Part shown: in pieces, positions 21,062 to 34,789 of the stretch | Numbering within the stretch: position 1 is the first letter of the stretch | How the letters are laid out: each line of letters opens with the position of its first letter | Source of the DNA: an uncultured Candidatus Saccharibacteria bacterium | GTDB taxonomy: Bacteria; Patescibacteriota; Saccharimonadia; Saccharimonadales; UBA7683 | Length of the DNA: 64,000 nucleotides | NCBI GenBank assembly: GCA_964397855.1 | Contig: CAYNKQ010000001.1 | Span: 38,046-102,045 of the forward strand | Direction of reading: 5' to 3' | Translations under genes and position numbers: made by a program | Notes under the pieces: model-generated | What the model saw: the letters and a program-made list of their open reading frames with translations, nothing else | What the model was told of the DNA's origin: nothing | Databases searched by the model: none

Positions 21062-21126
21062 CTCAGTGGTAGAGCGGGACGCTGTTAACGTTTAGGTCGC
21101 TGGTTCGAATCCAGCCGTCGGAGCCA
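21052..21126 (+). tRNA. tRNA-Asn (anticodon GUU)
   Basis: Manual fold. Acceptor TCCGACG/CGTCGGA, D-arm GCTC-AGTGGTA-GAGC, anticodon arm GGACG-CTGTTAA-CGTTT (two G-U pairs), variable loop AGGTC, T-arm GCTGG-TTCGAAT-CCAGC, discriminator G and encoded CCA. Confidence 0.85.
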
Positions 21127-22707: not shown

Positions 22708-22974
22708 GAATTGTTCTCCTCTTAGAACCAAAAAGGGCGGCCTGGTTGTTGTAACATCCAGTAGCAAAAAGCCACTTTCCGTACCAAGCCGCCCGTTAGA
22801 GGACAGAAAATATAATAGCTTTTGCCAAGACCTGAATGTTACAACGTTAATATTGTATCTAAATTTATACTTACTGGCGAGCAAATCTTTATTAATAGAA
22901 ACTTGAGTGAAGATACCTTGACAGTCATGATATCTTTAATAAAGATCTAATAAATAAAGATATAATCGCGCTAA

Positions 22975-23328: not shown

Positions 23329-23545
23329 GTTTTTTCACTTGCCGTTGCACTATTCTAATTAATTCTGCAAGCTCACGAAGTCCTTTACTGGCCGTGTCAA
23401 AGTCGATCTCTTCACCATACTTTTTTCTATATAGACGCTTAAATTCTTTAACCAAGGTAACGTTGATGTTCATTGCATCTCCTGTACATGAAAACCGCCT
23501 GACAGAATGGCTGTTCGTCAGACGGTTATCTTTGCCATTCCGCAA
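23321..23545 (-). CDS. Small hypothetical protein
   Basis: 74-aa ORF. The likely start is the internal Met (MNINVTLVKEFKRLYRKKYGEEIDF...). Basic and helical. Confidence 0.3.
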   Translation of the reverse strand: MRNGKDNRLTNSHSVRRFSCTGDAMNINVTLVKEFKRLYRKKYGEEIDFDTASKGLRELAELIRIVQRQVKKHE

Positions 23546-23617
23546 CCAATAATGGCGAAAGTAGGCGATCTATTCACTAGTTAGACTAGTAAGGTACTAG
23601 ATTTACATAAGGTGGTA

Positions 23618-24409
23618 CTAACGGGTGCTAAGTTTTTGTATTATTACGAGCTCACTTGGTGTTAATAATGCTCTACTTTTTAGCATTATGGATTTTGATC
23701 GAACCTCGGCGAACATACTAAGTGCGTTACCCTCACCAAAAACGTTTTTTCTGAAATACTGGTTTAGGTTTGCAGTATTCTTTTGTAGTTGAACATTCTT
23801 AAGACTAAACTGAAGCTCTTTCAATGAAATTTCTTGGTTAAAATTCTTGCATGCGTATGATATCACTGCCTGGGGAACACTGCCGTCAACTAGTGACTGC
23901 AGTCTATAGGTGTCATTGCCTACTCTAACAGAAGGGGTTGAGCCGCTGCTAATTTCAATTTCTGCACTAACTCCGTGAGTAGTTGGGTTAAACCCGTGCA
24001 GTTCACAAAATCTTTGAAAATTCGAATACTCGAATCCATCTAGCCATCGTTCATATTCGTACTCTCGATGGGCAGGATCAGTCTTGTACCAATCTCCATA
24101 GAGTAGCTGGTCATTTCCGTGTACTTCAAAGTAGTCTAGTTGCTGGCTTCTGTATCGATTTTCTAGACTTCGACTTTTTATGACACCTGCTTTCGTTAGT
24201 GTTTCTAGCGCGCGGTCTTCGTCCCATACATTCTGCAGGTTTACTTCAGTAGACAAGGCCTCTTCCCAATCAAAGCGCCATCTTCTGTCCTCGAAATCGT
24301 GACCTTCAAGAAATAATTCATTCAGTTTAAATAAAACTCGATTAATCCAGGTTGTATTATTTGCCATTCCGCAGACATTATACCCTGATGTAGCTAAACC
24401 TACTATCAA
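23618..24409 (-). CDS. Hypothetical protein, Trp/Tyr-rich, no recognisable domain
   Basis: 263-aa ORF. First gene of the operon adjacent to the recombinase. Confidence 0.4.
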   Translation of the reverse strand: MIVGLATSGYNVCGMANNTTWINRVLFKLNELFLEGHDFEDRRWRFDWEEALSTEVNLQNVWDEDRALETLTKAGVIKSRSLENRYRSQQLDYFEVHGNDQLLYGDWYKTDPAHREYEYERWLDGFEYSNFQRFCELHGFNPTTHGVSAEIEISSGSTPSVRVGNDTYRLQSLVDGSVPQAVISYACKNFNQEISLKELQFSLKNVQLQKNTANLNQYFRKNVFGEGNALSMFAEVRSKSIMLKSRALLTPSELVIIQKLSTR

Positions 24410-24602
24410 TCTGTGGCAATGGGTTTTATAATCAGAGAGTCTAAATCAACAAGAAGAACAAACCTTCGTGGTTCTTTGATTGCTTCCAGTAATGGGCAGC
24501 CAGTCGAAATCAGTAGGAAGCAATTCTTGTTGTTGGTTTAGACACCTTAGATTGGCTGTCCTTTTTTAGTGTCAGCATGAATAATTTACAAAAGGAGTAT
24601 TT

Positions 24603-24905
24603 ATGAAGTTCGTATATTTTGGCCTAATTCCGTTTCTTCTTACAGCCTGGTTTGTGTACAGGGAGCATTACAAGGTAGATTCAGGACCTGACCCCCTTGG
24701 TAGCAAAGACTTTAGAAACACGAACTTGGTCTTTTTGTTAATTGCTACCTGTTTCTATATGTGGCGGTTTAGTTTGGGAGCAGGTTTACTCACGGGGTTC
24801 GCGGTTTTACTTGCCAGATATTTTTGGGGTAGCGCTATTAAGACAATTAAAAGGCATGAATCTACCAACCAAGCTCCGAGAGTCAACAAGAAAGGGAATA
24901 GATGA
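24603..24905 (+). CDS. Small membrane protein
   Basis: 100 aa with three hydrophobic helices. RBS AAGGAG 8 nt upstream. Confidence 0.4.
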   Translation: MKFVYFGLIPFLLTAWFVYREHYKVDSGPDPLGSKDFRNTNLVFLLIATCFYMWRFSLGAGLLTGFAVLLARYFWGSAIKTIKRHESTNQAPRVNKKGNR

Positions 24906-25306
24906 TCTTCACTTTTTTGTTTATTTTGTTCACGCTTGTGGTTGTAAACGCCTTTCGCGATCGCAAGAAATAGCTTCCTGCTGGGGGTATCTTTTACTCT
25001 TATAAACCCCATATGGGAACCCAAAAATAAATGGGGTTGGTGCTAACGCGCGCTTTAAAGTTGCCTGCATTTTAGATTGATCTCTACTCGCTACGCTCAT
25101 TCTATGAGCTGCGAGGTGGTGTATATATAAAACCTGCCTGGGCTACTGTTAGGTGCCTGATATTTTTACGGCATAAGCATTTAAGCATCAACTGACATTT
25201 ATACAACGTTGATATACAAAGCAGGGCAGCGGAGTTATAATCAGCTAAGCAATGTAAGTACTGGCCCAGCCTTTCCACTTACAGGCTTATTAACAAGGCT
25301 GCACAC

Positions 25307-25987
25307 TCACTGGGAGTTCAAGGGTTGGATGTAGCTTGCTTCGTCAGACCGTGAACTATTCACGTCCCTGCTCACCTCAACTATGTTTAACATTCCGTCT
25401 TTGTAAGGTTTCATCAGCTGTGATATTGCATCTGGTTCATCAAGCGAAGGCTCTAGCCATAAAGACGTATCGTCCGGCTGCAAAATTACGGGCATCCTAT
25501 CATGGACTTTGCTCATTTCTTTATTTGGTTCTGTGGTGATGATTGAATAAGTACCCCAGTCATGACCTTCTGCATCTTTCCAGTGGCCGTACACGCCAGC
25601 AAATGCAAACAGTTCCTGATCCTTCGGCTGTATAAAGAATGGTTGTTTGTCACCCTTGGCACCCTTCCACTCATAGAAGCCGTTCGAGGGCACTAAGCAC
25701 CTTTGAAACTTAATAGCTTTACTCCAAGACCTTTTTTCAAACACACCCTCTGCACGAGTGTTAAACATCTTGTATTTGAACATATCTTTAGAGTCTTTCA
25801 TCCAAGGGGTCATGAAGCCCCACTTCATTTGCTCAACATGATTGCCGCCATCCTTCTGAAGGATGATAGGCACCAGTTGACTCGGTGCTATGTTGTAACG
25901 TTCTTTGAACCCAGCAACTTCTTTCTCGGGCACCTTGAACAGGTGGGGTATTTTACCTGTTTGATATAGGGTATAACGTCCGCACAT
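25307..25987 (-). CDS. SOS-response-associated peptidase (SRAP/YedK/HMCES family) abasic-site processing protein
   Basis: 226 aa starting MCGRYTLYQ (catalytic Cys2). Also has the conserved ...FNTRAE...GFYEW... SRAP motifs. Confidence 0.8.
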   Translation of the reverse strand: MCGRYTLYQTGKIPHLFKVPEKEVAGFKERYNIAPSQLVPIILQKDGGNHVEQMKWGFMTPWMKDSKDMFKYKMFNTRAEGVFEKRSWSKAIKFQRCLVPSNGFYEWKGAKGDKQPFFIQPKDQELFAFAGVYGHWKDAEGHDWGTYSIITTEPNKEMSKVHDRMPVILQPDDTSLWLEPSLDEPDAISQLMKPYKDGMLNIVEVSRDVNSSRSDEASYIQPLNSQ

Positions 25988-26037
25988 ATGACATATTGTA
26001 CTCCTATTAAATCTTTGGAACTTTCTTATCTCTCTAC

Positions 26038-26448
26038 TTAAACCACATCTTGGCGGATAGGGAATATCGGAGATGTGAACCTATCTTGGCTTACAGGGGT
26101 AGTTTCAGCCTCGGCGTCTAAAGCTTCGTTGCGTAAGCCGACGCATAAATCATCTAATGCAGTTGATCCTTTGACAACCATGGCCATTAGGCCCACGTAG
26201 GTACCTATTCTTGTGGGCTCCCTTCCTTCTAAGAGTTCGTTAGATAGTAATACTACCAGTGGTTGACAGATAATTATGCCCGTCCACATATAGAAGTTCG
26301 CTCCACCCTTAGCAAGAATCTCTGCCGCTCTACCTTCCCTCCACGACTTCTCTTGTGGAAGCGCAGGCTGATCCTGTTCAATTAACACTCCTGGGTTATA
26401 CATAACATAACTATAGCATAAATATAATAATAAAGCAAGGACAATCAT
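26038..26448 (-). CDS. Hypothetical membrane protein
   Basis: 136-aa ORF upstream of and co-oriented with the SRAP gene. Two hydrophobic segments. Confidence 0.35.
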   Translation of the reverse strand: MIVLALLLYLCYSYVMYNPGVLIEQDQPALPQEKSWREGRAAEILAKGGANFYMWTGIIICQPLVVLLSNELLEGREPTRIGTYVGLMAMVVKGSTALDDLCVGLRNEALDAEAETTPVSQDRFTSPIFPIRQDVV

Positions 26449-26707
26449 GTACGAACTTATAAATGAACCAGTAGATATGATCGCTATTTTTGGTAAATCA
26501 TTCCACGACCTTAAGCCTTATCGTTTTCGTTGGGCCGACAAAGAGTACCTGATTACTAAAATTGGATATAAGCACAAAACTAAAGAAGGAAAGAAGGTAA
26601 TCCATGTTTTCTCGGTAACCGACGGAGTTAACTTCTTCGAGCTCCGTTTCGATGCAGACGACATAGGCTGGGTACTTGGGAGGACCTGGGATGGCGAAGC
26701 CAATTAA
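26447..26707 (+). CDS. Small protein translationally coupled to the Y-family polymerase (YolD/UmuD-surrogate-like accessory factor?)
   Basis: 86-aa ORF overlapping the downstream polymerase ORF. The arrangement mirrors small-partner/UmuC-like pairs on mobile elements. No motif-level support. Confidence 0.3.
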   Translation: MYELINEPVDMIAIFGKSFHDLKPYRFRWADKEYLITKIGYKHKTKEGKKVIHVFSVTDGVNFFELRFDADDIGWVLGRTWDGEAN

Positions 26708-27971
26708 TCCCTACGGCTTAGGCTTAAACACTGAAGATCCTCGCATGATGCACATAGATATGAATAGCTGTTTCGCAAGTGTGGAGCAGCAAGCTAATCC
26801 GCTCCTGCGCGGTCGTCCGGTCGCGGTTTCGGCGTACGATTCACCTGGAGCAATAATCATCGCACCATCAATAGAGGCAAAGGCTATGGGTATTAAGCTT
26901 GGAATGACAAACGCAGAAGGCAAAGGTATATGTCCTGATCTGGTGGTCCTCACGCCCGATCCTATGAAGTATCGTGACGCAAATATTCGCTTCAGAAACA
27001 TATTTCAAAGTTATACCGATAAAGTAGCCCCAAAGTCGATTGACGAGGCTGTGATGGACTTCAGGGGGTCTCTGGCGATAAAAAATAAGACCATGATCGA
27101 TATAGGGAGGGAGATCAAACAGAGAGTGAAGGTGGAGATTGGAGAGTGGATACAGGTCAACGTAGGAATTGGCACAAGTCGTTGGACTGCAAAGATGGCG
27201 GCGGGCTTGCATAAACCCAATGGCTTGGACGTGCTTACGCACAAAAACCTACTTGATGTATACGGGCATCTACAACTGACTGACCTTACAGGAATTAGTA
27301 GACGAAACGAAGCTCGCTTAAACTCATACGGGATCTATACACCCTTAGACTTTTATAATGCGCCCGTCGACCTACTGAAAAAACAAGTGTTTCAGTCAAT
27401 CGTTGGCTACTATTGGTATGTTGAGCTTCGCGGTTGGGAAATGCATGATATCGATACGAGTCGCAGGTCCTTTGGCCACACCTATGCGCTAGGGAAGAAA
27501 ACGGTCGACAAGGCAAAGCTAGCACCTATGCTCATGAAGCTCTGCGAGAAGACCGGCAGACGGCTTCGTAGGCATGGGTATTATGCTCAGGGTATTCACG
27601 TGTCATTCGTCTACTACGACCATACATACTGGGGTAAAGGTAGGCGGGTAAGGGCGCCGCTATATACAACACAAGATATTTTTAAACACGCAATGCTGAT
27701 ATTCAACATGCAGCCACATCGCAAGATCGTAACCAATTTGTTTGTGACAGTGTACGATCTCGCCAGCAATGAATACCTCCCCAAAAGTCTGTTTGATGTT
27801 GGCAAGATGGACGTGGTTGCTCGTTCAAGGGCATTTGACGATATCAATGATCGCTATGGCGAGTTCACGGTAATACCTGCTGCGATGTTGGATGCAAAAG
27901 ACATCATTTTAGATCGCGTAGCGTTCGGTGGCGTTAAAGAACTGGAAGATCTTTATAACAACACCTTATAG
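26676..27971 (+). CDS. Y-family translesion DNA polymerase (UmuC/UvrX-like)
   Basis: HIDMNSCFASVEQQANPLLRGRPVAVS...IIAPSIEAKAMGIKLGM matches the UmuC/DinB N-terminal palm. The probable true start is the MM at 26748. Confidence 0.8.
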   Translation: MGGPGMAKPINPYGLGLNTEDPRMMHIDMNSCFASVEQQANPLLRGRPVAVSAYDSPGAIIIAPSIEAKAMGIKLGMTNAEGKGICPDLVVLTPDPMKYRDANIRFRNIFQSYTDKVAPKSIDEAVMDFRGSLAIKNKTMIDIGREIKQRVKVEIGEWIQVNVGIGTSRWTAKMAAGLHKPNGLDVLTHKNLLDVYGHLQLTDLTGISRRNEARLNSYGIYTPLDFYNAPVDLLKKQVFQSIVGYYWYVELRGWEMHDIDTSRRSFGHTYALGKKTVDKAKLAPMLMKLCEKTGRRLRRHGYYAQGIHVSFVYYDHTYWGKGRRVRAPLYTTQDIFKHAMLIFNMQPHRKIVTNLFVTVYDLASNEYLPKSLFDVGKMDVVARSRAFDDINDRYGEFTVIPAAMLDAKDIILDRVAFGGVKELEDLYNNTL

Positions 27972-28004
27972 TTGCCTTCAGAAATTCAGTATATGAAGTC
28001 AGGG

Positions 28005-28748
28005 CTATTTACCAAATAACTGGTCCAACTTTCCAAGTTCCCGCTGCTGTGTGTCAGCGTCAGAGTACATCTCCGTGATCTCGGATCTCTTAACCGCGTA
28101 AATATTTTCACTTTTAGACCACTTAACCATTTGTTCTCTGCGACGCCGTGTAAACTCTGGCTGTATTTTTGATGAGATTATTTCTATCGGAGCCCCGGTT
28201 TGTGTCGCCAAGCTTCTTGAGGTTTGAGCGTAGTTCTGAGATATCTCTTCCAGAATCTGACGATGAGTAGACTCGTAGACAATCACATCCATATCGATAT
28301 TATCAAGGGGATTGCTGGACTTTAGCTTACGCTTTAGGTCTTCAAGATCCGCCTGAATACTAGGCAGAAACTCGTGAAGAGGTTTACTCGGTTGGCCGTG
28401 GTGAGTTTGTTTGTATTCAGGAAAAGCGTCTTCTTGAGCTCCTCGGTAATATGCAGTGAGATTTCTATTTTTCTCGAAAAGGAAAAAATCCTCTGCATGT
28501 GTTTGGTCTGGTTTCATGTAGCGTATGCCAACGCCTATGGATTCGTTCTCAGTAGAGGTTGGGTAGGAAATGGTAATCTCGACCTTTATACCAGTTTTGC
28601 GATCAATTACTATGCCGTAGCTGTTTAAAAGTTCACCGATTTTGTAGCCCCAAGGATTCAGGAGCCCGCCTTGAGCCGCATCTACAATTACTTTAACTTC
28701 ATCGTAAGCCTTTGAAGAGTCCTTAATAACTTTGCCAGGTTTACTCAT
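28005..28748 (-). CDS. Hypothetical protein, downstream partner of the TIR-like gene (candidate effector/sensor)
   Basis: 247 aa, soluble, no TM and no recognisable catalytic motif. Its start overlaps the stop of the upstream gene by 8 nt. Confidence 0.45.
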   Translation of the reverse strand: MSKPGKVIKDSSKAYDEVKVIVDAAQGGLLNPWGYKIGELLNSYGIVIDRKTGIKVEITISYPTSTENESIGVGIRYMKPDQTHAEDFFLFEKNRNLTAYYRGAQEDAFPEYKQTHHGQPSKPLHEFLPSIQADLEDLKRKLKSSNPLDNIDMDVIVYESTHRQILEEISQNYAQTSRSLATQTGAPIEIISSKIQPEFTRRRREQMVKWSKSENIYAVKRSEITEMYSDADTQQRELGKLDQLFGK

Positions 28749-29550
28749 CGTTAGTTTTAAGCATTTTGATTATGTCAAAGCCCTTTTTTGCTAAAGTATA
28801 GTTCGGAGTACCTCTGCTACTAACTGCCAGCTTTAAGATGTTCTGCTGCACAAGATCATCCATATTGGCCACAACTTCTTGGGTACTGTATCGCTTAATT
28901 TGGTTGTGAATTTCTTCTTTAACTTGACCAGCCATCATTAGGTCGGAGCCACCCATGTGAACAGACACCATTATTCTTTTTTCATCTTCCATAGCCGCGA
29001 ACGCTCGCATGATCACAAGCTGTATATCATCTAAAGACTTCTCAACTTTATCAATATCTTGTTCGTCTAAGCTGTTTAGGTGGGCAGTTAGGGCGCCGAC
29101 AAGCTTCTCTTTTAACTTAGATCCATTCTTGTCATCTTTTTCAATTGAAAACTGAAGTACTCTATGGTGGGAGATATCAAAGGGTAAGTCCTTCGGATCG
29201 CCAAGATCAGCGTTAAAGAGCATCACGACATTATGTTCTGAGTGCTTTGCAATAGCATACCCAAGTTCGAACATCACATTTTGGTTAACTAGCTTAGCTC
29301 CAGAAGTTGATAAATCAACCATAGAAACGTCGGCTACGAATATTCCACAGTTATCAATTTTATCCTTGATCGTGGTCGCAATATTGGGAGAGCCGACTGA
29401 TCCTTGTGTGTCTCTATCAAGTCTTGGGGACTTTTCTAAAATATTTTTTCCCGCGAGCTCAGTAATAGAATTACTCAATGCTTTGCTTATAAAGCCCTTG
29501 GTTTTTTGATTGTTGCTTTGCCATGAGTAAAATATAGAGACACTTTCCAT
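28741..29550 (-). CDS. TIR-like domain protein (ThsB/DUF1863-like N-terminal domain plus ~120-aa helical C-terminal domain)
   Basis: 269 aa. N-terminus VSIFYSWQSNNQ matches the betaA signature of bacterial TIR/TIR-like domains (VFISYSW[DE]...). A conserved Glu sits in NVMFELGYAI about 95 aa in. Confidence 0.5.
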   Translation of the reverse strand: MESVSIFYSWQSNNQKTKGFISKALSNSITELAGKNILEKSPRLDRDTQGSVGSPNIATTIKDKIDNCGIFVADVSMVDLSTSGAKLVNQNVMFELGYAIAKHSEHNVVMLFNADLGDPKDLPFDISHHRVLQFSIEKDDKNGSKLKEKLVGALTAHLNSLDEQDIDKVEKSLDDIQLVIMRAFAAMEDEKRIMVSVHMGGSDLMMAGQVKEEIHNQIKRYSTQEVVANMDDLVQQNILKLAVSSRGTPNYTLAKKGFDIIKMLKTNDE

Positions 29551-29645
29551 AATTTAAGTATATCTCATTGAGAACGCGAACAGACAACCCCTGGGTTTAA
29601 GTCGATTATGTAAACCGAAGGTAAAACCCCGCGATCTCTATAGGG

Positions 29646-29915
29646 ATGAGTGTTAATAATAAAACCAAGGGTGGTAAGATGTTAGAAATTAGTAAAGTGC
29701 GAAGCCTCTTGACCAACGAAACAAATGGAATGTCCAATAAGCAGATTGGCGCGGTCTTAAACAGATTGGGTGATCTGCCTGAAGATGAGCTTTCGGCTGC
29801 TTGGAAGAGAGAGGTAGACCGTCATTATATAGAGTTGGCTTCCTTTCTGTATGATCGTTTCAAAAGTGCTTCTAAAGTTAACAGTTGTAAAACTGACGTC
29901 AAGATTCTTGAATAG
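29646..29915 (+). CDS. Small hypothetical protein
   Basis: 89-aa ORF with RBS-like GGGTGG upstream. Followed by the hairpin AACCGC-N7-GCGGTT at 29993-30011. Confidence 0.3.
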   Translation: MSVNNKTKGGKMLEISKVRSLLTNETNGMSNKQIGAVLNRLGDLPEDELSAAWKREVDRHYIELASFLYDRFKSASKVNSCKTDVKILE

Positions 29916-30113
29916 AATCGAAAATTAACCTATAGTGGTATGTAGACATCATGCATGAAAGGCGAATATGCGTGACAGAGCGGGTACATTTATAAAATAC
30001 TAAACCGCCTAGTATGCGGTTACTTTTAGTCTCTATAACTTATGAATCGAGATTTTGAGTAGTTGCATATGCACTACATTTCAAACGCAAGTTTGATCGC
30101 GTAAACAACAAAG

Positions 30114-30149
30114 GAACCCTGATCATTTTGACCAGGGTTCGTTTGTTTC
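30114..30149. terminator. Hairpin terminator, possibly bidirectional (GAACCCTG-N11-CAGGGTTC followed by GTTTGTTTC)
   Basis: Perfect 8-bp stem, T-rich on the plus side and CTTTGTTGTTT on the minus side. Lies ~35 nt downstream of the minus-strand gene 30180..30506. Confidence 0.4.
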
Positions 30150-30179
30150 AAGGCGCTCACGATCGCCTTTGCTTTTATG

Positions 30180-30506
30180 CTACCAAGTTCGTGTTGGTGA
30201 ATTCAACCAAGTTGCTGAGTCACTATCAATGTTCCAAGAAGACCATGTCCGTGGATAAATCCGAGTGACTAAGTACTCATCGTTCGGGTCACCTGCGCTC
30301 GAGAGCTTGTCCCGCCAATAACCTGCCGAGCTGGCAGAGTCGATAAGCCAAACTGAGCCTTGAGGGTGCGTGTACTTACCAATTCCAACGCTTTTAATCG
30401 CAGCGATAACGTCGTCGTAATCTCTGCCGGGGTTGTGTAAATCGTAACTAACTGTGTAAACCATAATGGATAGTTCCTTTATATTGTTAATGTTCTTTGC
30501 CAACAC
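30180..30506 (-). CDS. Hypothetical small protein
   Basis: 108-aa ORF. The probable start is the internal MVYTVSYDL... RBS present. Confidence 0.35.
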   Translation of the reverse strand: MLAKNINNIKELSIMVYTVSYDLHNPGRDYDDVIAAIKSVGIGKYTHPQGSVWLIDSASSAGYWRDKLSSAGDPNDEYLVTRIYPRTWSSWNIDSDSATWLNSPTRTW

Positions 30507-30992
30507 AAACAGAACTGTCGTGAGTCAGTTGATGAACTAGAGGCCAAGCGGTGGTCGGTGATTTTATGTTCGCGTAAACATGTTATGAGCCGAAAACCGC
30601 AAAGCTTTTCTAGGTGTTGGTTGGGCAGCTCCTTCTATACCCCAGAGTACCCTCTGTTAATAAAAGAAGTCTACACCACTCGAGGGACGTAGGTGCCCCC
30701 TTGCGTGGGCTACTACTCCGTGGGAGTTGTTGGTACTTCTACCTACTGCTCCCCCGAGTGCTATAGACTTAATGTCTGCAAGGATGACGGTGTACCAATA
30801 CCGTATTTTTACACAGCCTCTCTCAAGGCTGATACATTTATTATACCAGAATCCGCTTACGGCTGGAAGCTTTTAGGCCAGTTTATTGTGAAAAATACTA
30901 AGAAACGTGCTGCCTGCGAGATGCTAACAGATTAAGCGTGAATGCTGTTCAATTTCACGACCAGTCTTAAGCCACTAACCGTTTCGAACTAA

Positions 30993-31095
30993 GGTTATAA
31001 CTTCCTCTATCGTGGGGAGCCAAGCCATGTTAGATGAAGTCAGAACTGTGAAAATGGTTCTGACTTTTTGTATACCCAAAATAGAACTGAAACCG
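30993..31095 (+). repeat. Cassette-boundary repeat copy 1 (attC-like: L arm, perfect central hairpin plus T-run, R arm)
   Basis: GGTTATAACTTCCTCTATCGTGGGGAGCC ... AAGTCAGAAC-N10-GTTCTGACTTTTTG ... TATACCCAAAATAGAACTGAAACCG. The L and R arms are imperfect inverted repeats (TCTATYGT / ACAATAGA). Confidence 0.6.
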
Positions 31096-31223
31096 CAACA
31101 AAGATCGTTGTTCTGTCACAAAAGACAATCCTGCCTTAACGCCCAAGTTAATATCTACTGTGTATGCTTTGATGTCCGACATCACTGCGTCCTAGACACT
31201 AGCCAGGTTGTCTGGCGAGCAGG

Positions 31224-31712
31224 TTATACGGAAAAAATATTGCCTGCTATTATACCTATAGCTGTTGCGATACCACCAATTAGTAGTACCTCCACGGCAC
31301 TCCTAATTGGTGGAACTCTAACTATTTTACCTTTTGCATAACCGAGTACGAGTAGGCAGCTTAAGGCCGCAACAATCGCGACATCTCTTGAATAGCTCAT
31401 GGGGAAAATGATGATCGCCAAAAGTGGCACCAAGCCAGCCAGAAAGTATGCTCCGAACATTATTAAACCGCTGATTACCGGTACTCTGAATGAGTCACTT
31501 CGATCTAGCTGATGTGCGGACTTAGAGCTCAAGTATTGACCAGATCCCATCGAAAGAGCCTCGACTAATATTGTGACAACACCGGCCAATACAACCACCT
31601 GCTTATTGCCTGTACCGGTACTAATGCCAACAATAACGCCAGTAGTCGATACAAGTGCATCGTTAAACCCGAACATAGCACTTTGTAAATATTCTTTTTG
31701 GACTTTTTTCAT
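31224..31712 (-). CDS. VIT1/CCC1-family membrane protein (putative Fe/Mn transporter, short form)
   Basis: 162 aa. FGFNDALVSTTGVIVG matches the VIT-family G.NDGL.S motif. Has 4-5 TM helices. Confidence 0.6.
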   Translation of the reverse strand: MKKVQKEYLQSAMFGFNDALVSTTGVIVGISTGTGNKQVVVLAGVVTILVEALSMGSGQYLSSKSAHQLDRSDSFRVPVISGLIMFGAYFLAGLVPLLAIIIFPMSYSRDVAIVAALSCLLVLGYAKGKIVRVPPIRSAVEVLLIGGIATAIGIIAGNIFSV

Positions 31713-31759
31713 AATCTAAGTATACCCCTTTGGGTTTATATAAATGATACACTTAGGTC

Positions 31760-32011
31760 ATGAAAAATGAATTTAGCATCGATGAGGCAAGGAAGATTGG
31801 CGAACAAATCGGAGTAGATTTTACTAAGTTTGATCTTGAGGAATTTCGCAAAGGATTAGCGATTGAACTAGAGCACGGATCACACGACCCAGAAACTAAC
31901 GTTACCAATAGCGATCCACTTTTAACCGGCAAAATTGCTTGGGCACATCTTAAAGAAATCCCTGACTACTACACTCGTCTTGAAAAGATGGAGTCCGAGG
32001 CTGGCAGTTAA
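31760..32011 (+). CDS. Small hypothetical protein (acidic, ...IELEHGSHDPETNVT...)
   Basis: 83-aa ORF. First in the same-strand array. Followed by repeat copy 2. Confidence 0.4.
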   Translation: MKNEFSIDEARKIGEQIGVDFTKFDLEEFRKGLAIELEHGSHDPETNVTNSDPLLTGKIAWAHLKEIPDYYTRLEKMESEAGS

Positions 32012-32043
32012 TTAGCGCCGTTCTGAAACTATAAGATCCTGCT

Positions 32044-32163
32044 TAATTACAGTTATAACTTCCTCTATTGTTGTGAGCCAAGCTGGAATAGACGAAGTCA
32101 GAACTGGTAATTCGGTTCTGACTTTTTGTATACCCACAATAGAATTGAAACCGTTTAGAGCGT
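32044..32163 (+). repeat. Cassette-boundary repeat copy 2
   Basis: AGATCCTGCTTAATTACAGTTATAACTTCCTCTATTGTTGTGAGCCAAGC...AAGTCAGAAC-N10-GTTCTGACTTTTTGTATACCCACAATAGAATTGAAACCG. About 85% identical to copy 1. Confidence 0.65.
32105..32138 (+). terminator. Intrinsic-terminator-like hairpin within repeat copy 2 (10-bp perfect stem plus TTTTT)
   Basis: AAGTCAGAAC TGGTAATTCG GTTCTGACTT TTTG, ~95 nt downstream of the 31760..32011 stop. An identical stem is at 31037-31070. Confidence 0.5.
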
Positions 32164-32182
32164 TGTGTCTTATACTTAGGTC

Positions 32183-32776
32183 ATGAAACAGGTAGTCTTT
32201 ATACACGGCGGAACAACATTTTATAAACACAAGGATTATCTTAATTATCTCCGCTCAAAACCTATTAACATCAGCCGTCTAACCATACAAAAATTTTGGC
32301 CTGATAGATTACAAGAAGATCTGGGAGATGACTTCCAAGTTTTAGCTCCTCGTATGCCCAATGGCACTAATGCTAACTATGACGAGTGGGCCATATGGTT
32401 TGGGCGCATTGCAGAAGTGATTAATGACAACGTTATTTTAGTTGGCCATTCTTTGGGCGGCATATTTTTGGCGAAATATTTATCTGAACATGATTTTCCG
32501 AAGAAAATACGTGCTACATTACTTGTAGCCGCGCCTTACGAAGACGAGACCAATGAAGATCTGGCAAACTTCAAGATAACAGGTGGACTAGAAAAATTTG
32601 CCGAGCAAGGCGGAAATATAATCTTCTATCACGGCACGGACGACATTGTTCCTCTTAGCGAGTTGGAGCTGTACAAAAAATCCATTCCGAAAGCGGATAC
32701 ACACGTGCTTTCTGCTCAAGACCATTTCGTGAGGGAAGCATTCCCCGAAATCATTGAAGCAATAAAGAACATATAG
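32183..32776 (+). CDS. Alpha/beta serine hydrolase of the YdeN/RBBP9 family
   Basis: 197 aa. Nucleophile elbow ILVGHSLGG. Size and layout match PF06821-type serine hydrolases. Confidence 0.65.
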   Translation: MKQVVFIHGGTTFYKHKDYLNYLRSKPINISRLTIQKFWPDRLQEDLGDDFQVLAPRMPNGTNANYDEWAIWFGRIAEVINDNVILVGHSLGGIFLAKYLSEHDFPKKIRATLLVAAPYEDETNEDLANFKITGGLEKFAEQGGNIIFYHGTDDIVPLSELELYKKSIPKADTHVLSAQDHFVREAFPEIIEAIKNI

Positions 32777-32814
32777 AGTCGTCTCACAAATGTGCTACTT
32801 GTTCTAGTTAAATA

Positions 32815-32870
32815 TTAGGTCCTGTTTAATCGCAGTTTTGACTTTTTGCATGTTCACAACAAAACTGAGA
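32815..32870 (+). repeat. Cassette-boundary repeat copy 3 (degenerate)
   Basis: AGGTCCTGTTTAATCGCAGTTTTGACTTTTTGCATG... shares the AGRTCCTGYTTAAT-YRCAG left block and the GACTTTTTG right half with copy 2. Confidence 0.45.
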
Positions 32871-32909
32871 CCCCCATCATCATCAATACAGCTTTAATAT
32901 AATTTTATT

Positions 32910-33455
32910 ATGAGTACTGCAGAAAACTTACAAACAAACAATCCAGACGTGTTGCTTATTGAGCCTGATATTGAACGAGACGCCGCTCTTGGTGTTCAGT
33001 GGCTCAAGGGCGAACTAGGGCGATCAACACTTACTTCTATGGGCGTTTCCGACAAAGACAATAAGCCCACTACCCCTGAACACGAACGAGAGCGTGTCAG
33101 AGATTTCATCGAGGGGCAAGAACAGCTTAATTGGATGATTGAATATCAAGGTAGAGTTGTCGGTTCGGTGTGGGCAGAACTTAAGCAAGTCGGCAACGTA
33201 CCAGCCCCTGCTATTCATATTATGATTGGCGATCCTAATGTACGAGGTAAGGGTGTCGGGTATGCGGCAACCAGCAAAGTAACGGAGTACTTGGAAAATC
33301 GAGGGTTTAAGTCTATTTACTCAAGGCACCTGATAAAAAATAGCGGCGCAAGTGGCTTACTGCAATCACTTGGCTTTACTAATTTCGGAGAGCCATACGA
33401 TGATGATGACGGACTGGAATGGCAAAATGTAAAAAAGGAAGTCAAGGCCGAATAA
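32910..33455 (+). CDS. GNAT family N-acetyltransferase (aminoglycoside-acetyltransferase-like size and architecture)
   Basis: 181 aa. HIMIGDPNVRGKGVGYAATSKVTEYL is the GNAT acetyl-CoA-binding motif A (Q/R-x-x-G-x-G/A). Paralogous to 35408..35965. Confidence 0.7.
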   Translation: MSTAENLQTNNPDVLLIEPDIERDAALGVQWLKGELGRSTLTSMGVSDKDNKPTTPEHERERVRDFIEGQEQLNWMIEYQGRVVGSVWAELKQVGNVPAPAIHIMIGDPNVRGKGVGYAATSKVTEYLENRGFKSIYSRHLIKNSGASGLLQSLGFTNFGEPYDDDDGLEWQNVKKEVKAE

Positions 33456-33461
33456 CACTGC

Positions 33462-33540
33462 AGTCTGCCTTGATTACGGTTATAACTTGCTCTATCGTTG
33501 TGAGCCAAACAAATGCAACTCACATCTGTGGGTTGTTTTC
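33462..33540 (+). repeat. Cassette-boundary repeat copy 4 (left arm intact, centre replaced)
   Basis: AGTCTGCCTTGATTACGGTTATAACTTGCTCTATCGTTGTGAGCCAAAC then AAATGCAACTCACA. This forms a TGTGAG/CTCACA hairpin instead of the AAGTCAGAAC stem. Confidence 0.5.
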
Positions 33541-33829
33541 GTTTCTCTGGTGTTTGGTTCGGTTCGGTGACCTGAGATTGCGAAGGAATCTCGCAAGGTT
33601 ACGATTCGATAGTCAAGTGCTCTCGCAGAAGCTCGCTTCGAGAAAGTACGCAGAGTATACTCGGGTAATCCAGTCGCCGGAGCCACGAAGATTACATCTG
33701 TTAATTTTCATACCCCAAACTTGACTTCCGAACTAATACCTCTGATGAGGTATTTTTTGTTATACTAACAACATGATAAGCAAGTAATTCATCCCAGATA
33801 AATAACAATTAACAAAGGAATGAATTATT

Positions 33830-34609
33830 ATGCGTGTAAAAACTAAATACGATGACGTTAATAAAGTACTAGATCTTCTCACGGAGGGCTTAGTAGAGCT
33901 ACTCGGAGATCAACTAGTCGGCTTATATTTAACAGGATCACTGACCTACAGTGACTTCAATCGTGATAGCAGTGACATAGATTTTCTTGCAGTGCTTGAA
34001 ACCGGACTTGCTGATAGCCAGTTTGAGAAAGTGAAAAAACTTCACGAAGCGATTGCCAATGAAGTACCTCATTGGTCTAAGAATCTTGAAGGCTCTTATA
34101 TAACTCGAGGTATGTTAGGAAATATAGAGGTACCAGAGGAAAAACGTCCTTATGTAAACGGTGGCAAGGTTTCTTACTGTACCTATGGAAATGAATGGAC
34201 TATCAATTTGTACGCCCTTCAAGAATGCGGACAGGTTATCTACGGGGCGGGGGTGCAGCCGTTATTGCCAATAGTAACAATTGAGCAAGTAAGAGAATCA
34301 TCCAGGCAAGATTTACTAAAAGACTGGGCTCCTAAAGTAAATGATCCGAATGCTTTCACTCATTCAATGTATGACAGTGAACACTTAAAGAACTATGCAA
34401 CGCTAACTATGTGCAGAATACTTTACAGAGCAAAGAATGATAACATCGCCTCAAAGAAAGTTGCTTCTAAATGGGTTAAAGAGACCTACCCTGAGTGGAA
34501 AGATCTGGTTGAACGGGCAGAAGATTGGATTCACGGCAAAGAGATGGGCAGTGATACCAAAGTGAGGAAGTTTATCGAGTTTACTCTAGAACAAGTTCAG
34601 AAAGATTAA
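33830..34609 (+). CDS. Nucleotidyltransferase-domain protein resembling aminoglycoside adenylyltransferases (AadA/ANT(3'')(9)-like)
   Basis: 259 aa. LVGLYLTGSLTYSDFNRDSSDIDFLAVLE is the pol-beta-type NTase motif G[SG]-x9-13-D-x-D. Length and the C-terminal helical domain resemble ~260-aa AadA-family enzymes. RBS AAAGGA upstream. Confidence 0.6.
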   Translation: MRVKTKYDDVNKVLDLLTEGLVELLGDQLVGLYLTGSLTYSDFNRDSSDIDFLAVLETGLADSQFEKVKKLHEAIANEVPHWSKNLEGSYITRGMLGNIEVPEEKRPYVNGGKVSYCTYGNEWTINLYALQECGQVIYGAGVQPLLPIVTIEQVRESSRQDLLKDWAPKVNDPNAFTHSMYDSEHLKNYATLTMCRILYRAKNDNIASKKVASKWVKETYPEWKDLVERAEDWIHGKEMGSDTKVRKFIEFTLEQVQKD

Positions 34610-34789
34610 AGCTATTTGACGTCACGTGGCGGGATAGTTGGACTATCTCGTCATAGTACTTAGTTCGTAATATGCTTGGCAGAGGGAGCCAGAGCCAGCA
34701 GTGAAATACAGTGATCGGTTCCCGTGACCTGTTCCTGATTCACTCCTGACTCAAGTCAAGAAGAGTGACTTTAATAAAATTGCTCAAAA

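What the first reader, a model, noticed from the sequence alone, without database searches (positions are those of the whole stretch)
30993..34609. Integron-cassette-like array: same-strand small accessory genes separated by ~100-bp attC-like repeats
Four consecutive plus-strand genes are separated by members of one repeat family. The genes are a small protein, a YdeN-type hydrolase, an aac-like GNAT and an AadA-like nucleotidyltransferase. The full repeat has three parts. The left arm is GGTTATAACTTCCTCTATYGTKGKGAGCC and contains the palindrome GTTATAAC. The centre is a perfect 10-bp hairpin, AAGTCAGAAC-N10-GTTCTGACTT. The right arm is TATACCCAMAATAGAAYTGAAACCG. The arms are imperfect inverted repeats of each other (TCTATTGT / ACAATAGA), the defining geometry of attC sites. 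Two copies are degenerate. GNAT and ANT genes are classic integron cargo. No integron integrase is visible, so this may be a CALIN-type array or an unrelated cassette system.
Basis: seen in the sequence. Interest (0 to 1): 0.7.

Follow-up and report, generated by a model that had tools for sequence, protein, structure and literature searches.

The report
Serine-recombinase gene-cassette array at tRNA-Asn
The repeats are real, but they are not integron attC sites: they are attachment-site arms of large-serine-recombinase mobile elements that stack small accessory-gene cassettes one after another behind the tRNA-Asn gene of a Saccharibacteria (TM7) chromosome.

Summary
The repeat family is real and non-random. 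There are two full copies, two truncated copies and a further degenerate junction, all on the + strand.

It is not an integron:
- the window has no tyrosine recombinase;
- the repeat ends do not pair when folded;
- the proposed arm-arm stem is broken in most of 29 family members and shows no covariation.

The conserved part is a ~48-bp block ending in GAGCCA. I found it in more than 115 loci, nearly all from Candidatus Saccharibacteria MAGs. It occurs in same-orientation clusters, always just after a same-strand gene. Every tRNA found nearby was tRNA-Asn, upstream on the same strand (19 of 80 block loci, 10 of 11 LSR loci, and the window).

Read on the opposite strand, the block encodes the C-terminal tail of large serine recombinases (LSRs). 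An 8,819-bp circular element carries exactly one block, and its LSR gene reads through it; this is attP. Integrated relatives run from tRNA-Asn, through the LSR, to a block. The window's own LSR island (21.1-31.0 kb) has this layout.

A 1.1-kb VIT1+DUF5661 cassette is 90-97% identical in five genomes with unrelated neighbours. In one of them it directly abuts tRNA-Asn.

Best reading: a tRNA-Asn-anchored tandem array of LSR-type integrative cassettes. This is a new variant of a known kind (SCC-like, tycheposon-like).

The parts
21052..21126 (+). tRNA-Asn(GTT). Chromosomal attachment target (B arm). Its 3' end ...CGTCGGAGCCA is the anchor of the whole island.
   Evidence: ARAGORN and Rfam. tRNA-Asn was the only tRNA found in 19 of 80 block-bearing loci and 10 of 11 LSR loci, always upstream and on the same strand as the blocks.
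21085..22884 (-). Large serine recombinase gene. Its last 14 codons (WLRRLDSNQRPKR*) are the antisense of the tRNA-Asn 3' end; TGG (Trp) is the complement of CCA.
   Evidence: Resolvase + Recombinase + Zn_ribbon_recom domains; translation. 102 of 120 homologues have the same tRNA-antisense tail, and 3 have a block-encoded tail.
22885..30986 (.). Cargo of the LSR island: SRAP 25307-25987, UmuC-like polymerase 26676-27971, TIR-domain protein 28741-29550, and unknowns.
   Evidence: Pfam. The island is bounded by tRNA-Asn and block 1, the same layout as L137.
30987..31022 (+). Block 1: type-1 attP arm (P) closing the LSR island. GGTTATAACTTCCTCTATCGTGGGGAGCCA; its upstream 18 nt are diverged.
   Evidence: nhmmer E = 7e-11. 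The minus-strand frame reads WLPTIEEVITLVRNG*.
31023..31095 (+). Start of cassette 1. P' arm (AAGCCATGTTAGATGAAGTCAGAAC), inverted relative to the block; hairpin plus T-run (AAGTCAGAAC-N10-GTTCTGACTTTTT); and a second inverted arm copy ending GAAACC.
   Evidence: Dyad 88% complementary across 29 copies, against 33-47% out of register. Hairpin 99% paired.
31224..31712 (-).
   Evidence: PF01988, E = 3e-27.
31760..32011 (+). DUF5661 gene (cassette 1 cargo).
   Evidence: PF18905, E = 2e-19. The whole cassette 31023-32080 is 90-97% identical in L056, L071, L099 and L114, with unrelated flanks.
32034..32080 (+). Block 2: P arm ending cassette 1.
   Evidence: nhmmer E = 1.5e-16. Similarity to the other genomes stops exactly at 32080, the A of GAGCCA.
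32081..32153 (+). Start of cassette 2: P' arm, terminator hairpin, second inverted arm.
32183..32776 (+). Alpha/beta (Ser_hydrolase, YdeN-like) hydrolase gene (cassette 2 cargo).
   Evidence: PF06821 and PF00561.
32820..32872 (+). Degenerate junction 3. The block's left flank (TCCTGTTTAATCGCAGTT) is fused to TTGACTTTTTG...GAGACC. This is a deletion between GTTATAAC and GTTCTGAC that removed the recombination core.
   Evidence: Direct reading; family D3 at 76% identity.
32910..33455 (+). GNAT acetyltransferase gene (cargo). It has a paralogue on the other strand at 35408-35965.
   Evidence: PF13302 and PF00583. Below every NCBIfam cutoff.
33461..33507 (+). Block 4: P arm. It is followed by a different hairpin-terminator (33515-33536) instead of the AAGTCAGAAC module.
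   Evidence: nhmmer E = 5.6e-14; terminator scan.
33830..34609 (+). AadA_C / NTP_transf_2 nucleotidyltransferase gene (cargo). Only distantly ANT(9)-like.
   Evidence: Pfam. NCBIfam ANT_9 scores 49 bits against a cutoff of 340.
34684..34760 (+). Degenerate junction 5. GGGAGCCA (ending at 34691) is followed by a second module type (GAGCCAGCAG...CGGTTCCCGTGACC...) that is also seen after blocks in L015, L043, L074, L080, L086 and L128.
   Evidence: Direct reading. Weak: the block body is not recognisable here.
50326..50373 (+). Diverged type-1 block followed by a hairpin. Possible distal end of the whole tRNA-Asn island, which would then include the NRPS cluster.
   Evidence: nhmmer E = 0.0026; sequence. 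Tentative.

Best explanation
The window is a Candidatus Saccharibacteria chromosome segment. Integrative elements that use a large serine recombinase (LSR) have piled up in tandem behind the 3' end of tRNA-Asn.

Each unit ends in a conserved ~48-bp 'block', aaATCyyGCTTAATyrCrGTTATAACTTCCTCTATyGTkGTGAGCCA. The block is the P arm of the element's attP. The first ~25 bp of the next unit, AAGCyrGAATAGAyrAAGTCAGAAC in the module type seen here, is an inverted P' arm. Each junction is therefore a ~53-bp imperfect dyad centred on GAGCCA, and strand exchange occurs within that hexamer.

The chromosomal partner (attB) is the T-arm/acceptor end of tRNA-Asn. It shares only GGAGCCA with the block.

In autonomous elements the LSR gene sits at the tRNA-proximal edge and reads outward across the site:
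- In the circular form, its last ~20 codons are the block (WL[P/T]TIEEVITxIKxDL...). This explains why the block's variable positions fall every third base.
- In the integrated form, those codons are the antisense of the tRNA (WLRxLDSNQRP...).

New arrivals insert at the tRNA and push older units outward. The window reads: tRNA-Asn | 10-kb LSR island | block | VIT1+DUF5661 | block | hydrolase | (deleted site) | GNAT | block | nucleotidyltransferase | degenerate site.

The 0.7-1.2-kb units lack a recombinase. They are most likely non-autonomous cassettes moved in trans by an LSR, or the trimmed remains of larger elements.

The AAGTCAGAAC...GTTCTGACTTTTT hairpin also looks like a terminator for the preceding gene.

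Shown here: the architecture, the tRNA-Asn anchoring, the circular form, the attL/attP comparison, and the cassette boundaries.

Inferred: catalysis by the LSR, the exact crossover dinucleotide, trans-mobilisation, and any role of the tail switch.
For: 1. Distribution.
- The block occurs in more than 115 loci, almost all from Saccharibacteria MAGs.
- It forms same-orientation clusters of 2-4 per 8 kb.
- It always lies 8-58 nt after the stop of a same-strand gene.

2. tRNA anchoring.
- tRNA-Asn was the only tRNA found near the blocks.
- It was present in 19 of 80 block loci, always upstream and on the same strand.

3. Coding signal.
- The variable positions are all congruent to 2 mod 3.
- The opposite-strand frame is the C-terminus of real LSR genes: L090 at 519 aa, plus L063, P0122, P0133 and P0190.

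4. LSR tails.
- 102 of 120 homologues of the window LSR, and the close homologues of the L090 LSR, end in the tRNA-antisense tail.
- In 10 of 11 fetched contexts the LSR overlaps tRNA-Asn by 14 codons.

5. Excised form.
- L133 and L134 have 141-bp terminal overlaps and share an 8,819-bp unit.
- They are circular permutations at 99.99% identity from two samples; L132 carries the same unit twice.
- Each unit has one block, no tRNA, and an LSR that reads through the block.

6. Integrated relative L137.
- The layout is tRNA-Asn | LSR | 10.5 kb | a single type-1 block.
- attL and the circular attP are identical to the right of GGAGCCA. To the left, one is tRNA and the other is block.

7. The window has the same layout: tRNA 21052-21126, LSR, block 1 at 30987.

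8. Cassette mobility.
- Window 31023-32080 is 90-97% identical in four other species' MAGs, each with different neighbours.
- In L056 the cassette abuts a genuine tRNA-Asn at ...GGGAGCCA|AGCC.
- 20 of 130 inter-genome similarity endpoints fall within 3 nt of the GAGCCA boundary, against 0.18 expected.

9. Dyad.
- The P/P' dyad is 88% complementary across 29 copies, against 33-47% when slid out of register.
- GGTTCGAA in the tRNA lies 25 nt from the CCA end, and GGTTATAA in the block lies 30 nt from it.
- From my own knowledge (Rutherford et al. 2013, NAR), this matches the 5-bp attB/attP half-site offset described for serine integrases.
Against: - No recombination was observed. Nothing here shows that the LSR cuts these sites, or where it cuts.
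- Canonical serine integrases recombine only attP x attB. Building an array needs integration next to a resident cassette (a tRNA-P' junction, formally attL), and excising an LSR-less cassette needs two attP-like junctions to recombine. Neither is canonical.
- LSR genes are present in only about 5 of about 115 block loci. Most arrays have no recombinase within 4 kb.
- Many junctions carry a plain terminator hairpin rather than a recognisable P' arm.
- The dyad shows no covariation because both halves are conserved. It cannot be separated statistically from conservation of the terminator hairpin that overlaps P'.
- Close homologues of the L090 LSR end in a different (type-2) arm. The block is therefore one of several arm families.
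- The circular form belongs to a relative whose LSR is 64% identical, not to the window's own element.
- Block counts across the whole source genome were not obtained.
Confidence: 0.8

Rival explanations
1. Same tRNA-Asn/LSR origin, but the small units are not mobile cassettes. On this view they are decayed stumps of successive full-size LSR elements. The sharing of units between genomes comes from natural transformation plus homologous recombination, using the conserved 48-bp blocks and the tRNA as portable homology arms.
For: - LSR genes are rare in the arrays.
- LSR remnants exist, such as the L011 123-aa fragment ending in tRNA-Asn.
- Copy 3 in the window is an internal deletion.
- The blocks are nearly identical between species, so they could support homologous exchange.
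- Serine integrases do not normally recombine two attP-like sites (own knowledge).
Against: - The VIT1+DUF5661 unit has four different kinds of left neighbour: a type-1 block, a type-2 arm, a genuine tRNA-Asn, and another block variant. The join is always at GAGCCA. The tRNA and the block share only 7-8 nt there, too little for homologous exchange.
- Similarity endpoints pile up within 3 nt of the boundary instead of spreading over the block.
- The units keep an intact P-O-P' dyad.
Confidence: 0.15
2. Integron-type array (CALIN). The repeats are attC sites that fold as single-stranded hairpins and are recombined by an IntI tyrosine recombinase encoded elsewhere.
For: - Compact same-strand cassettes, with repeats just after the stop codons.
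- The arms are partly complementary in the two full window copies.
- The cargo (GNAT, nucleotidyltransferase) is typical of integrons.
Against: - No tyrosine recombinase in the window.
- None was called in 11 related LSR contexts.
- The terminal boxes are unpaired in the folds.
- The outer stem is broken in most family members and shows no covariation.
- The right end lacks GTTRRRY.
- The conserved 48 bp is far longer than the 7-bp attC core, and it is protein-coding in LSR genes.
- The arrays are anchored at tRNA-Asn rather than at attI.
Confidence: 0.02
3. A generic intergenic repeat: a MITE/REP-like element, or a conserved terminator or 3'-UTR module of Saccharibacteria with no role in recombination.
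For: - The element sits after stop codons and is followed by hairpin-plus-T-run terminators.
- The metagenome contigs L001 and L002 break inside the repeat, as happens at multi-copy repeats.
- The full module has terminal inverted repeats.
Against: - In the window it occurs only in the array.
- Orientation is always the same, and the position is always downstream of tRNA-Asn.
- There are no target-site duplications.
- The block is the reading frame of LSR C-termini, and it is the single site on a circular LSR element.
- Inter-genome synteny breaks exactly at its 3' end.
Confidence: 0.03

Closest known systems
Staphylococcal cassette chromosome (SCC/SCCmec) composite islands with CcrAB/CcrC large serine recombinases (own knowledge)
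   Same: - Large serine recombinases insert circular cassettes at the extreme 3' end of one conserved gene.
- Successive insertions give tandem arrays whose units are separated by short direct repeats of the site.
- Units without a recombinase (pseudo-SCC) sit in the same arrays and are thought to be moved in trans.
- The cargo is resistance and accessory genes.
   Different: - The target is a tRNA gene (tRNA-Asn), not rlmH.
- There is one LSR per element, not a CcrA/CcrB pair.
- The units are much smaller: 0.7-1.2 kb with 1-2 genes.
- The conserved arm is ~48 bp and doubles as the recombinase's own C-terminal coding sequence.
- The host is Saccharibacteria.
- No homology to ccr was tested.
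Tycheposons and tRNA-anchored flexible islands of Prochlorococcus (bioRxiv 10.1101/2020.12.28.424599); more generally, tDNA islands as catalogued by Islander (PMC4383910)
   Same: - Islands sit next to a tRNA gene.
[quoted passage not shown]
- Newly arriving elements push older ones further into the island.
- Degenerate remnants are scattered through the island.
- A minority of tycheposons use a large serine recombinase.
   Different: - 910 of 937 tycheposons use tyrosine recombinases, and the repeat between them is a partial tRNA.
- Here the recombinase is an LSR and the exchange is at the very end of the tRNA, so only GGAGCCA is duplicated.
- The conspicuous repeat is therefore the element's own attP arm, not a tRNA fragment.
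- The units are single-gene cassettes.
Mobile integrons and CALINs (IntI tyrosine recombinase, attC sites)
   Same: - Works alike at the level of genome architecture: ordered, same-orientation arrays of 1-2-gene cassettes.
- Each cassette carries one recombination site at its 3' end.
- New cassettes enter at one fixed end of the array.
- The same cassette is found in different arrays.
   Different: - The recombinase family differs: serine, not tyrosine.
- The site is a duplex ~53-bp dyad with a conserved 48-bp arm, not a folded single strand with a 7-bp core.
- The entry point is a tRNA gene, not attI.
- Each junction carries a terminator, and the genes have their own -10-like boxes, so there is no common Pc promoter.
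- The defining integron features were tested and not met.
Integration-dependent C-terminal switching, as in mycobacteriophage integration-dependent immunity, where attP lies inside the repressor gene (own knowledge: Broussard et al. 2013, Mol Cell)
   Same: An att site lies inside the 3' end of a gene of the element. The protein therefore has one C-terminus in the circular form and another in the integrated form.
   Different: - Here the affected gene is the recombinase itself.
- The enzyme is a serine recombinase.
- A functional consequence of the switch is entirely untested.

Membership tests
Integron / CALIN (attC array) | IntI-type tyrosine recombinase with attI at the head of the array (absent by definition in a CALIN, but expected elsewhere in the genome) | tested here: not met
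   No Phage_integrase-type hit among the about 60 window ORFs scanned with Pfam. None appears in the precomputed Pfam lists of 11 related LSR contexts. The rest of the source genome was not available.
Integron / CALIN (attC array) | attC geometry: terminal R''(RYYYAAC)/R'(GTTRRRY) boxes that pair, L''/L' boxes, and a bottom-strand hairpin with extrahelical bases | tested here: not met
   Both strands of both full copies fold with the terminal 12-16 nt unpaired. The right end reads GAAACCG. The arm-arm stem is 78% paired, with inner pairs broken in 12-25 of 29 copies, and no measure exceeds the shuffles.
Integron / CALIN (attC array) | Score above threshold with the IntegronFinder attC covariance model | not testable with these tools
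   The model is not in Rfam. The Rfam gathering scan of the window found only the tRNA.
Large-serine-recombinase integrative element | Recombinase with Resolvase catalytic domain + Recombinase domain + zinc-ribbon domain | tested here: met
   Window 21085-22884: PF00239, PF07508 and PF13408. The L090 LSR and 240 listed homologues have the same architecture.
Large-serine-recombinase integrative element | attP of about 50 bp with imperfect inverted half-sites around a central crossover | tested here: met
   A 53-bp dyad, GTTATAACTTCCTCTAT...ATAGAyrAAGTCAGAAC, centred on GAGCCA. It is 88% complementary in 29 copies, against 33-47% out of register. It is the single site on the circular element. 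The crossover dinucleotide is not mapped.
Large-serine-recombinase integrative element | attB distinct from attP, sharing only a short core; attL and attR are hybrids | tested here: met
   The tRNA-Asn 3' end and the block share only GGAGCCA. L137 attL and the circular attP are identical to the right of that core and unrelated to the left. L137 attR is block + core + chromosomal flank.
Large-serine-recombinase integrative element | Excised circular form with one attP | tested here: met
   An 8,819-bp circle in two samples plus a dimer contig, with one block and no tRNA. It belongs to a relative whose LSR is 64% identical, not to the window's own island.
Large-serine-recombinase integrative element | Recombinase-dependent strand exchange between these sites | not testable with these tools
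   Requires an in vitro or in vivo recombination assay.
tRNA-anchored tandem (accretion) island | Array begins at one specific tRNA gene and extends from its 3' end, with units separated by direct repeats of the site | tested here: met
   tRNA-Asn is the only tRNA near the blocks: 19 of 19 are upstream on the same strand. Blocks lie in the same orientation at 0.3-2 kb spacing. The window shows tRNA at 21052, then blocks at 30987, 32033 and 33462.
tRNA-anchored tandem (accretion) island | Newest unit lies nearest the tRNA (insertion at the regenerated target) | tested here: inconclusive
   L056 has tRNA-Asn|VIT1 cassette, while the window has tRNA-Asn|LSR island|block|VIT1 cassette. That fits proximal insertion, but the two are different species, not an isogenic pair.
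MITE / REP-type dispersed repeat | Many copies dispersed in intergenic regions genome-wide, in both orientations, often with target-site duplications | tested here: not met
   Only the array copies occur in 64 kb, all on the + strand. Copies are clustered and co-oriented in every locus. A whole-genome census was not possible.

The most novel reading that the evidence does not exclude
Saccharibacteria carry an integron-like gene-capture platform built on a serine recombinase instead of a tyrosine recombinase.

- tRNA-Asn serves as the fixed entry site.
- One- or two-gene cassettes, each with its own promoter, terminator and a ~53-bp attP-like site, are excised and inserted in trans by LSRs that are usually encoded elsewhere.
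- The recombinase's own C-terminal tail switches between a conserved block-encoded form (circular state) and a tRNA-antisense form (integrated state). This switch would contribute to the control of directionality or stability.
- The second, ~39-bp dyad in each module would act as a portable attB-like landing pad. That would let arrays grow despite the attP x attB rule.
Probability: 0.3. Interest if true: 0.8.

Novelty: new variant of a known kind. Interest (0 to 1): 0.6.

Why it matters
Saccharibacteria and other CPR bacteria have tiny genomes, and very little is known about how they gain accessory genes. This system points to one specific, phylum-wide hotspot (the 3' end of tRNA-Asn) and a recombinase family with readable attP and attB sites.

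- It explains a class of contig breaks and 'hypervariable' regions in TM7 MAGs.
- It gives a simple marker, the 48-bp block, for finding their flexible gene pool. That pool includes aminoglycoside-type modifying enzymes, metal efflux, restriction-modification and possibly an NRPS cluster.
- It supplies candidate serine integrase / att pairs for site-specific genetic tools in organisms that are very hard to manipulate.
- If the recombinase-less cassettes are mobilised in trans, it would be a second, independently evolved solution to the integron problem.

Tried and rejected
1. Block as the shared C-terminus of the upstream + strand genes. Rejected: the stop codons lie 8-58 nt upstream, in all three frames, and the C-termini are unrelated.

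2. Block as the 5' end of a long opposite-strand gene, or as a free-standing mini-ORF. Rejected: the frame stops 11-17 codons after GTTATAAC and usually has no start or long upstream frame. The frame makes sense only as the LSR tail.

3. Block as a tRNA or tRNA-like gene. Rejected: ARAGORN and Rfam find nothing, and the T-arm register does not fit. Only GAGCCA mimics the tRNA end.

4. Prediction that all LSR elements end in a type-1 block. It failed for close homologues of the L090 LSR: no nhmmer hit in L122-L131 (crashed on empty output). Those elements end in a different 'type-2' arm that also finishes in GGGAGCCA. The prediction held for the window's own LSR family.

5. Source organism name. 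The cluster look-up gave no name, and the window LSR is not in the contig index. Assignment to Saccharibacteria rests on three points:
- 90-97% identical cassettes in Saccharibacteria MAGs;
- named homologues;
- shared synteny with L131.

6. Literature. Searches on Saccharibacteria with integron, attC, serine recombinase, extrachromosomal or genomic island found no description of this system.

7. Displaced tRNA-Asn fragment at 33667-33685. A 17/19 match, E about 0.4. Suggestive only.

8. Promoter scan of the array. Fewer consensus sigma-70 matches than in shuffles, so it gives no tool support for cassette promoters.

Full report
OBSERVATION

The repeat family is real.
- The left arm GTTATAACTTCCTCTATYGT occurs three times in the window (30994, 32052, 33479), all on the + strand. 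Chance expectation is 0.01.
- The right part GTTCTGACTTTTTGTATACCCA occurs twice; chance expectation is 0.
- Two full copies (30987-31095 and 32045-32153) are 83% identical over 109 nt.
- Copy 3 (32820-32872) is a deletion derivative. The sequence that normally precedes GTTATAAC (...AATCGCAGTT) runs straight into TTGACTTTTTG....
- Copy 4 (33461-33507) is the left arm alone, followed by a different hairpin-terminator.

The exception is a VIT1-family gene on the minus strand (31224-31712), which shares the first cassette with DUF5661.

The nucleotidyltransferase is only remotely ANT(9)-like: 49 bits against a cutoff of 340.

WHAT THE REPEAT IS NOT

An integron reading fails on each feature I could test.
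- None of the about 60 window ORFs scanned has a tyrosine-recombinase domain.
- Folding either strand of either full copy leaves the terminal GGTTATAAC and GAAACC unpaired. The z-scores are only -2 to -3.
Its inner pairs are broken in 12-25 of 29 sequences, and no measure exceeds the shuffles.
- The right end reads GAAACCG rather than GTTRRRY.

The attC covariance model itself could not be run.

A dispersed MITE or terminator reading also fails. A profile of the conserved part finds only the three array copies in 64 kb, plus one weak diverged copy at 50326-50373, all on the + strand.

WHERE ELSE IT OCCURS

Nearly all are from Candidatus Saccharibacteria MAGs of different species.

The conserved unit is a ~48-bp block: aaATCyyGCTTAATyrCrGTTATAACTTCCTCTATyGTkGTGAGCCA. 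Conservation stops abruptly after GAGCCA. What follows varies. It is either the AAGTCAGAAC...GTTCTGACTTTTT...TTGAAACC module seen in the window or a variety of A-run/hairpin/T-run terminators.

The block always lies 8-58 nt downstream of the stop codon of a same-strand gene. Those genes stop in any frame and have unrelated C-termini. Blocks come in co-oriented clusters of 2-4 at 0.3-2 kb spacing.

THE KEY CLUES

1. All variable positions of the block fall at positions congruent to 2 mod 3. This also holds in 43 copies that were not selected by my search pattern. There the changes read conservatively on the opposite strand (GTT to GTC, E to D/Q/K, I to V, T to A) and radically on the + strand.

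2. That opposite-strand frame, WLTTIEEVITxIKxDL..., stops within 11-17 codons and normally has no upstream frame. In L090, however, it is the C-terminus of a 519-aa large serine recombinase.

3. The window has its own LSR (21085-22884, minus strand; Resolvase + Recombinase + Zn-ribbon). Its last 14 codons, WLRRLDSNQRPKR*, are the antisense of tRNA-Asn (21052-21126, + strand). The Trp codon TGG is the complement of the tRNA's CCA.

4. In L056, the cassette that follows block 1 in the window follows a genuine tRNA-Asn instead:
- L056: ...CCCGGGAGCCA|AGCCATGTTAGATGAAGTCAGAAC
- window...CGTGGGGAGCCA|AGCCATGTTAGATGAAGTCAGAAC.

The block's GAGCCA therefore stands in for the 3' end of tRNA-Asn.

ANCHORING

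I scanned 80 block-bearing loci for tRNAs. Nineteen have one. All nineteen are tRNA-Asn(GTT), upstream of the blocks and on the same strand. No other tRNA species was found.

THE RECOMBINASE LINK AT SCALE

- Close homologues of the L090 LSR end in ...WLRGLDSNQRP....
- In nine of nine contexts long enough to judge, the gene overlaps tRNA-Asn by 14 codons.
- Those elements carry an XRE-HTH / SpoVG-like / Phage_CRI-like / LSR module and resistance-type cargo.
- They end 8-11 kb away in a second arm type...AGGTTsCTGATTGAAnnATGTAGGGGGAGCCA.

The window's LSR family is large, with 1262 hits. Of the 120 listed members, 102 have the tRNA-antisense tail. Three (P0122, P0133, P0190) have a block-encoded tail.

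EXCISED AND INTEGRATED FORMS

P0133 lies on two 8,960-bp contigs from two samples. Each has a 141-bp terminal overlap. They are circular permutations of one another, 99.99% identical over an 8,819-bp unit. P0133 also lies on a 17,954-bp contig that holds the unit twice. Each unit has exactly one block, no tRNA, and an LSR gene that reads through the block. This is the circular form with an intact attP.

An integrated relative on an 804-kb contig (L137) reads tRNA-Asn | LSR | 10.5 kb of cargo | a single type-1 block.
- Its attL: ...GAATCCAGTCCCCGGAGCCATGATAGAGAGCCGTGCTG...
- The circular attP: ...CTCTATTACGGGGAGCCAAGATAGAGAGCCGTGCTG...

The two are identical to the right of GGAGCCA. To the left, one is tRNA and the other is block.

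The L137 attR keeps the block's T at +22 (GTGAGCCA), where the tRNA has G. This places the exchange inside GAGCCA.

The window has the same layout: tRNA-Asn, LSR, 8 kb of cargo (SRAP, UmuC-like, TIR protein), then block 1.

SITE ANATOMY

The block plus the first ~25 nt of the next unit form a 53-bp imperfect dyad: GTTATAACTTCCTCTAT-N-ATAGAyrAAGTCAGAAC, centred on GAGCCA. It is 88% complementary over 29 copies, against 33-47% when slid out of register. Because both halves are conserved there is no covariation, as expected for a duplex protein-binding site.

Its 5' half is the outer part of P'. It probably doubles as the terminator of the preceding gene.

GGTTCGAA in the tRNA T-loop lies 25 nt from the CCA end, and GGTTATAA in the block lies 30 nt from it. 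This 5-bp offset is what has been described for attB versus attP half-sites of serine integrases (own knowledge; Rutherford et al. 2013).

CASSETTES MOVE AS UNITS

Window 31023-32080 (P' + hairpin, VIT1, DUF5661, block) is 90-97% identical in L056, L071, L099 and L114. These are different species representatives. The left neighbours are unrelated: tRNA-Asn, a type-1 block, or a type-2 arm. There are at least four different right neighbours. Similarity ends at the A of GAGCCA.

Over all fetched loci, 20 of 130 distinct inter-genome similarity endpoints lie within 3 nt of a block boundary, against 0.18 expected.

L056 (tRNA|VIT1 cassette) compared with the window (tRNA|LSR island|block|VIT1 cassette) looks like an empty site versus an occupied site. 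This implies insertion at the tRNA-proximal end.

MECHANISM: SHOWN AND INFERRED

Shown:
- the architecture and the tRNA-Asn anchoring;
- a circular form with one site;
- hybrid attL and attR;
- sharp cassette boundaries.

Inferred:
- that the LSR catalyses exchange within GAGCCA;
- that arrays grow by repeated insertion at the tRNA;
- that the recombinase-less 0.7-1.2-kb units are mobilised in trans (about even odds) rather than being trimmed remnants shuffled by homologous recombination;
- that the block-encoded tail matters to the enzyme.

The main difficulty is that canonical serine integrases recombine only attP with attB. Accretion next to a resident cassette and excision of LSR-less units both need non-canonical site pairs. 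SCC/Ccr systems are a precedent for such tolerance (own knowledge). The second, ~39-bp dyad in each module (GTTCTGACTT...TTGAAACC) could be a portable attB-like site. I did not test this.

COMPARISON AND NOVELTY

In architecture the system works like an integron, but it fails the tests for integron membership.

It belongs with LSR integrative elements and tRNA-anchored accretion islands. The closest analogues are SCC composite islands and tycheposons.

What is new:
- the host group;
- the single phylum-wide tRNA-Asn hotspot;
- the very small cassettes;
- the strongly conserved 48-bp attP arm that is also the recombinase's C-terminal coding sequence.

I found no description of this system in the searchable literature.

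Verdict: a real feature and a new variant of a known kind. Interest 0.6.

Noticed in passing
window 35408-50373: An NRPS cluster lies between the small-cassette array and a diverged block + hairpin at 50326-50373. It comprises a 1988-aa A-T-C-A module protein, a 952-aa C-T protein, a PPTase, a class-III aminotransferase, a DAO oxidoreductase, GNATs and a histone-deacetylase-like gene. The whole 21.1-50.4 kb stretch may be one tRNA-Asn flexible island. An NRPS in a Saccharibacterium would be unusual.
   Followed up: partly
window 21085-21126 and 30987-31022; L133 1750-1813: The LSR's C-terminal tail depends on the state of the element. It is the tRNA antisense (WLRRLDSNQRPKR*) when integrated and block-encoded (WLPTIEEVIT...) when circular. 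The block-encoded tail looks to be under purifying selection, which suggests a state-dependent property of the enzyme.
   Followed up: partly
window 31057-31095 and 32115-32153: Each module contains a second, shorter dyad (GTTCTGACTT...TTGAAACC, about 39 bp) right after the 53-bp one. The sizes match attB and attP of serine integrases. It could be a portable landing pad, or just an old duplication.
   Followed up: no
window 31748-31765 and 32171-32188: An identical TAyACTTAGGTCATGAAA sits at the start of the DUF5661 and hydrolase genes. It is a -10-like TAyACT box 7 nt before the ATG with no Shine-Dalgarno, which suggests leaderless, self-promoted cassettes. Many cassettes in other loci show TATAAT-like boxes in the same position.
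   Followed up: no
window 33667-33685: AATCCAGTCGCCGGAGCCA matches the last 19 nt of the window's tRNA-Asn at 17/19 and ends in GGAGCCA. It may be a displaced tRNA fragment marking an older junction inside the 320-nt non-coding stretch before the nucleotidyltransferase gene. It is marginal statistically (E about 0.4). Clearer 26-nt fragments exist in L041 and L116.
   Followed up: partly
L122, L125, L128 (far ends); L114 left of the VIT1 cassette: A second arm family, ...AGGTTsCTGATTGAAnnATGTAGGGGGAGCCA, closes the elements of the L090-type LSR subfamily. A second post-junction module (GAGCCAGaCCAAGCAGAG...GGTTCCnTGACC...) recurs in several genomes and at window 34692-34760.
   Followed up: partly
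L133 / L134 (8,819-bp circle), L132 (dimer): The circular LSR element carries an EcoRI-like methylase, a GmrSD/HNH nuclease, DUF4268 and a MerR-type HTH. This is a mobile restriction/defence module of Saccharibacteria.
   Followed up: no
window 22975-30506: The LSR island carries an SRAP peptidase, a UmuC-like polymerase, a TIR-domain (CAP12/Pycsar-type) protein with an adjacent 247-aa unknown, and several ORFs with no family. A LexA-DNA-binding-domain gene (20262-20702) sits just upstream of the tRNA.
   Followed up: no
window 34790-35284: A 164-aa ORF after the last junction has weak local similarity to an internal segment of the ProA/Hhe anti-phage helicases (38 bits, far below cutoff). It may be a gene fragment.
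   Followed up: no
L001, L002 (Logan contigs SRR16798008, SRR16797988): Both metagenome contigs that carry the window's genes begin at window position 31039, inside the hairpin of repeat 1. Assemblers evidently break at this multi-copy module, so these arrays are probably under-assembled in MAGs.
   Followed up: no
window 5922-7230: A Fic/DOC-family gene with an adjacent SocA/Panacea-domain antitoxin-like gene: a toxin-antitoxin pair in the housekeeping part of the window.
   Followed up: no
L003, L018, L064, L063, L048: Blocks also occur on contigs binned as Pedobacter, Clostridiaceae, Microgenomates and Parcubacteria. The Pedobacter contigs are only 2.5 kb and are probably mis-binned Saccharibacteria DNA. 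Some exact-pattern hits in Bacteroides, Acidimicrobiales and archaeal MAGs lack the rest of the block and look like chance matches.
   Followed up: no
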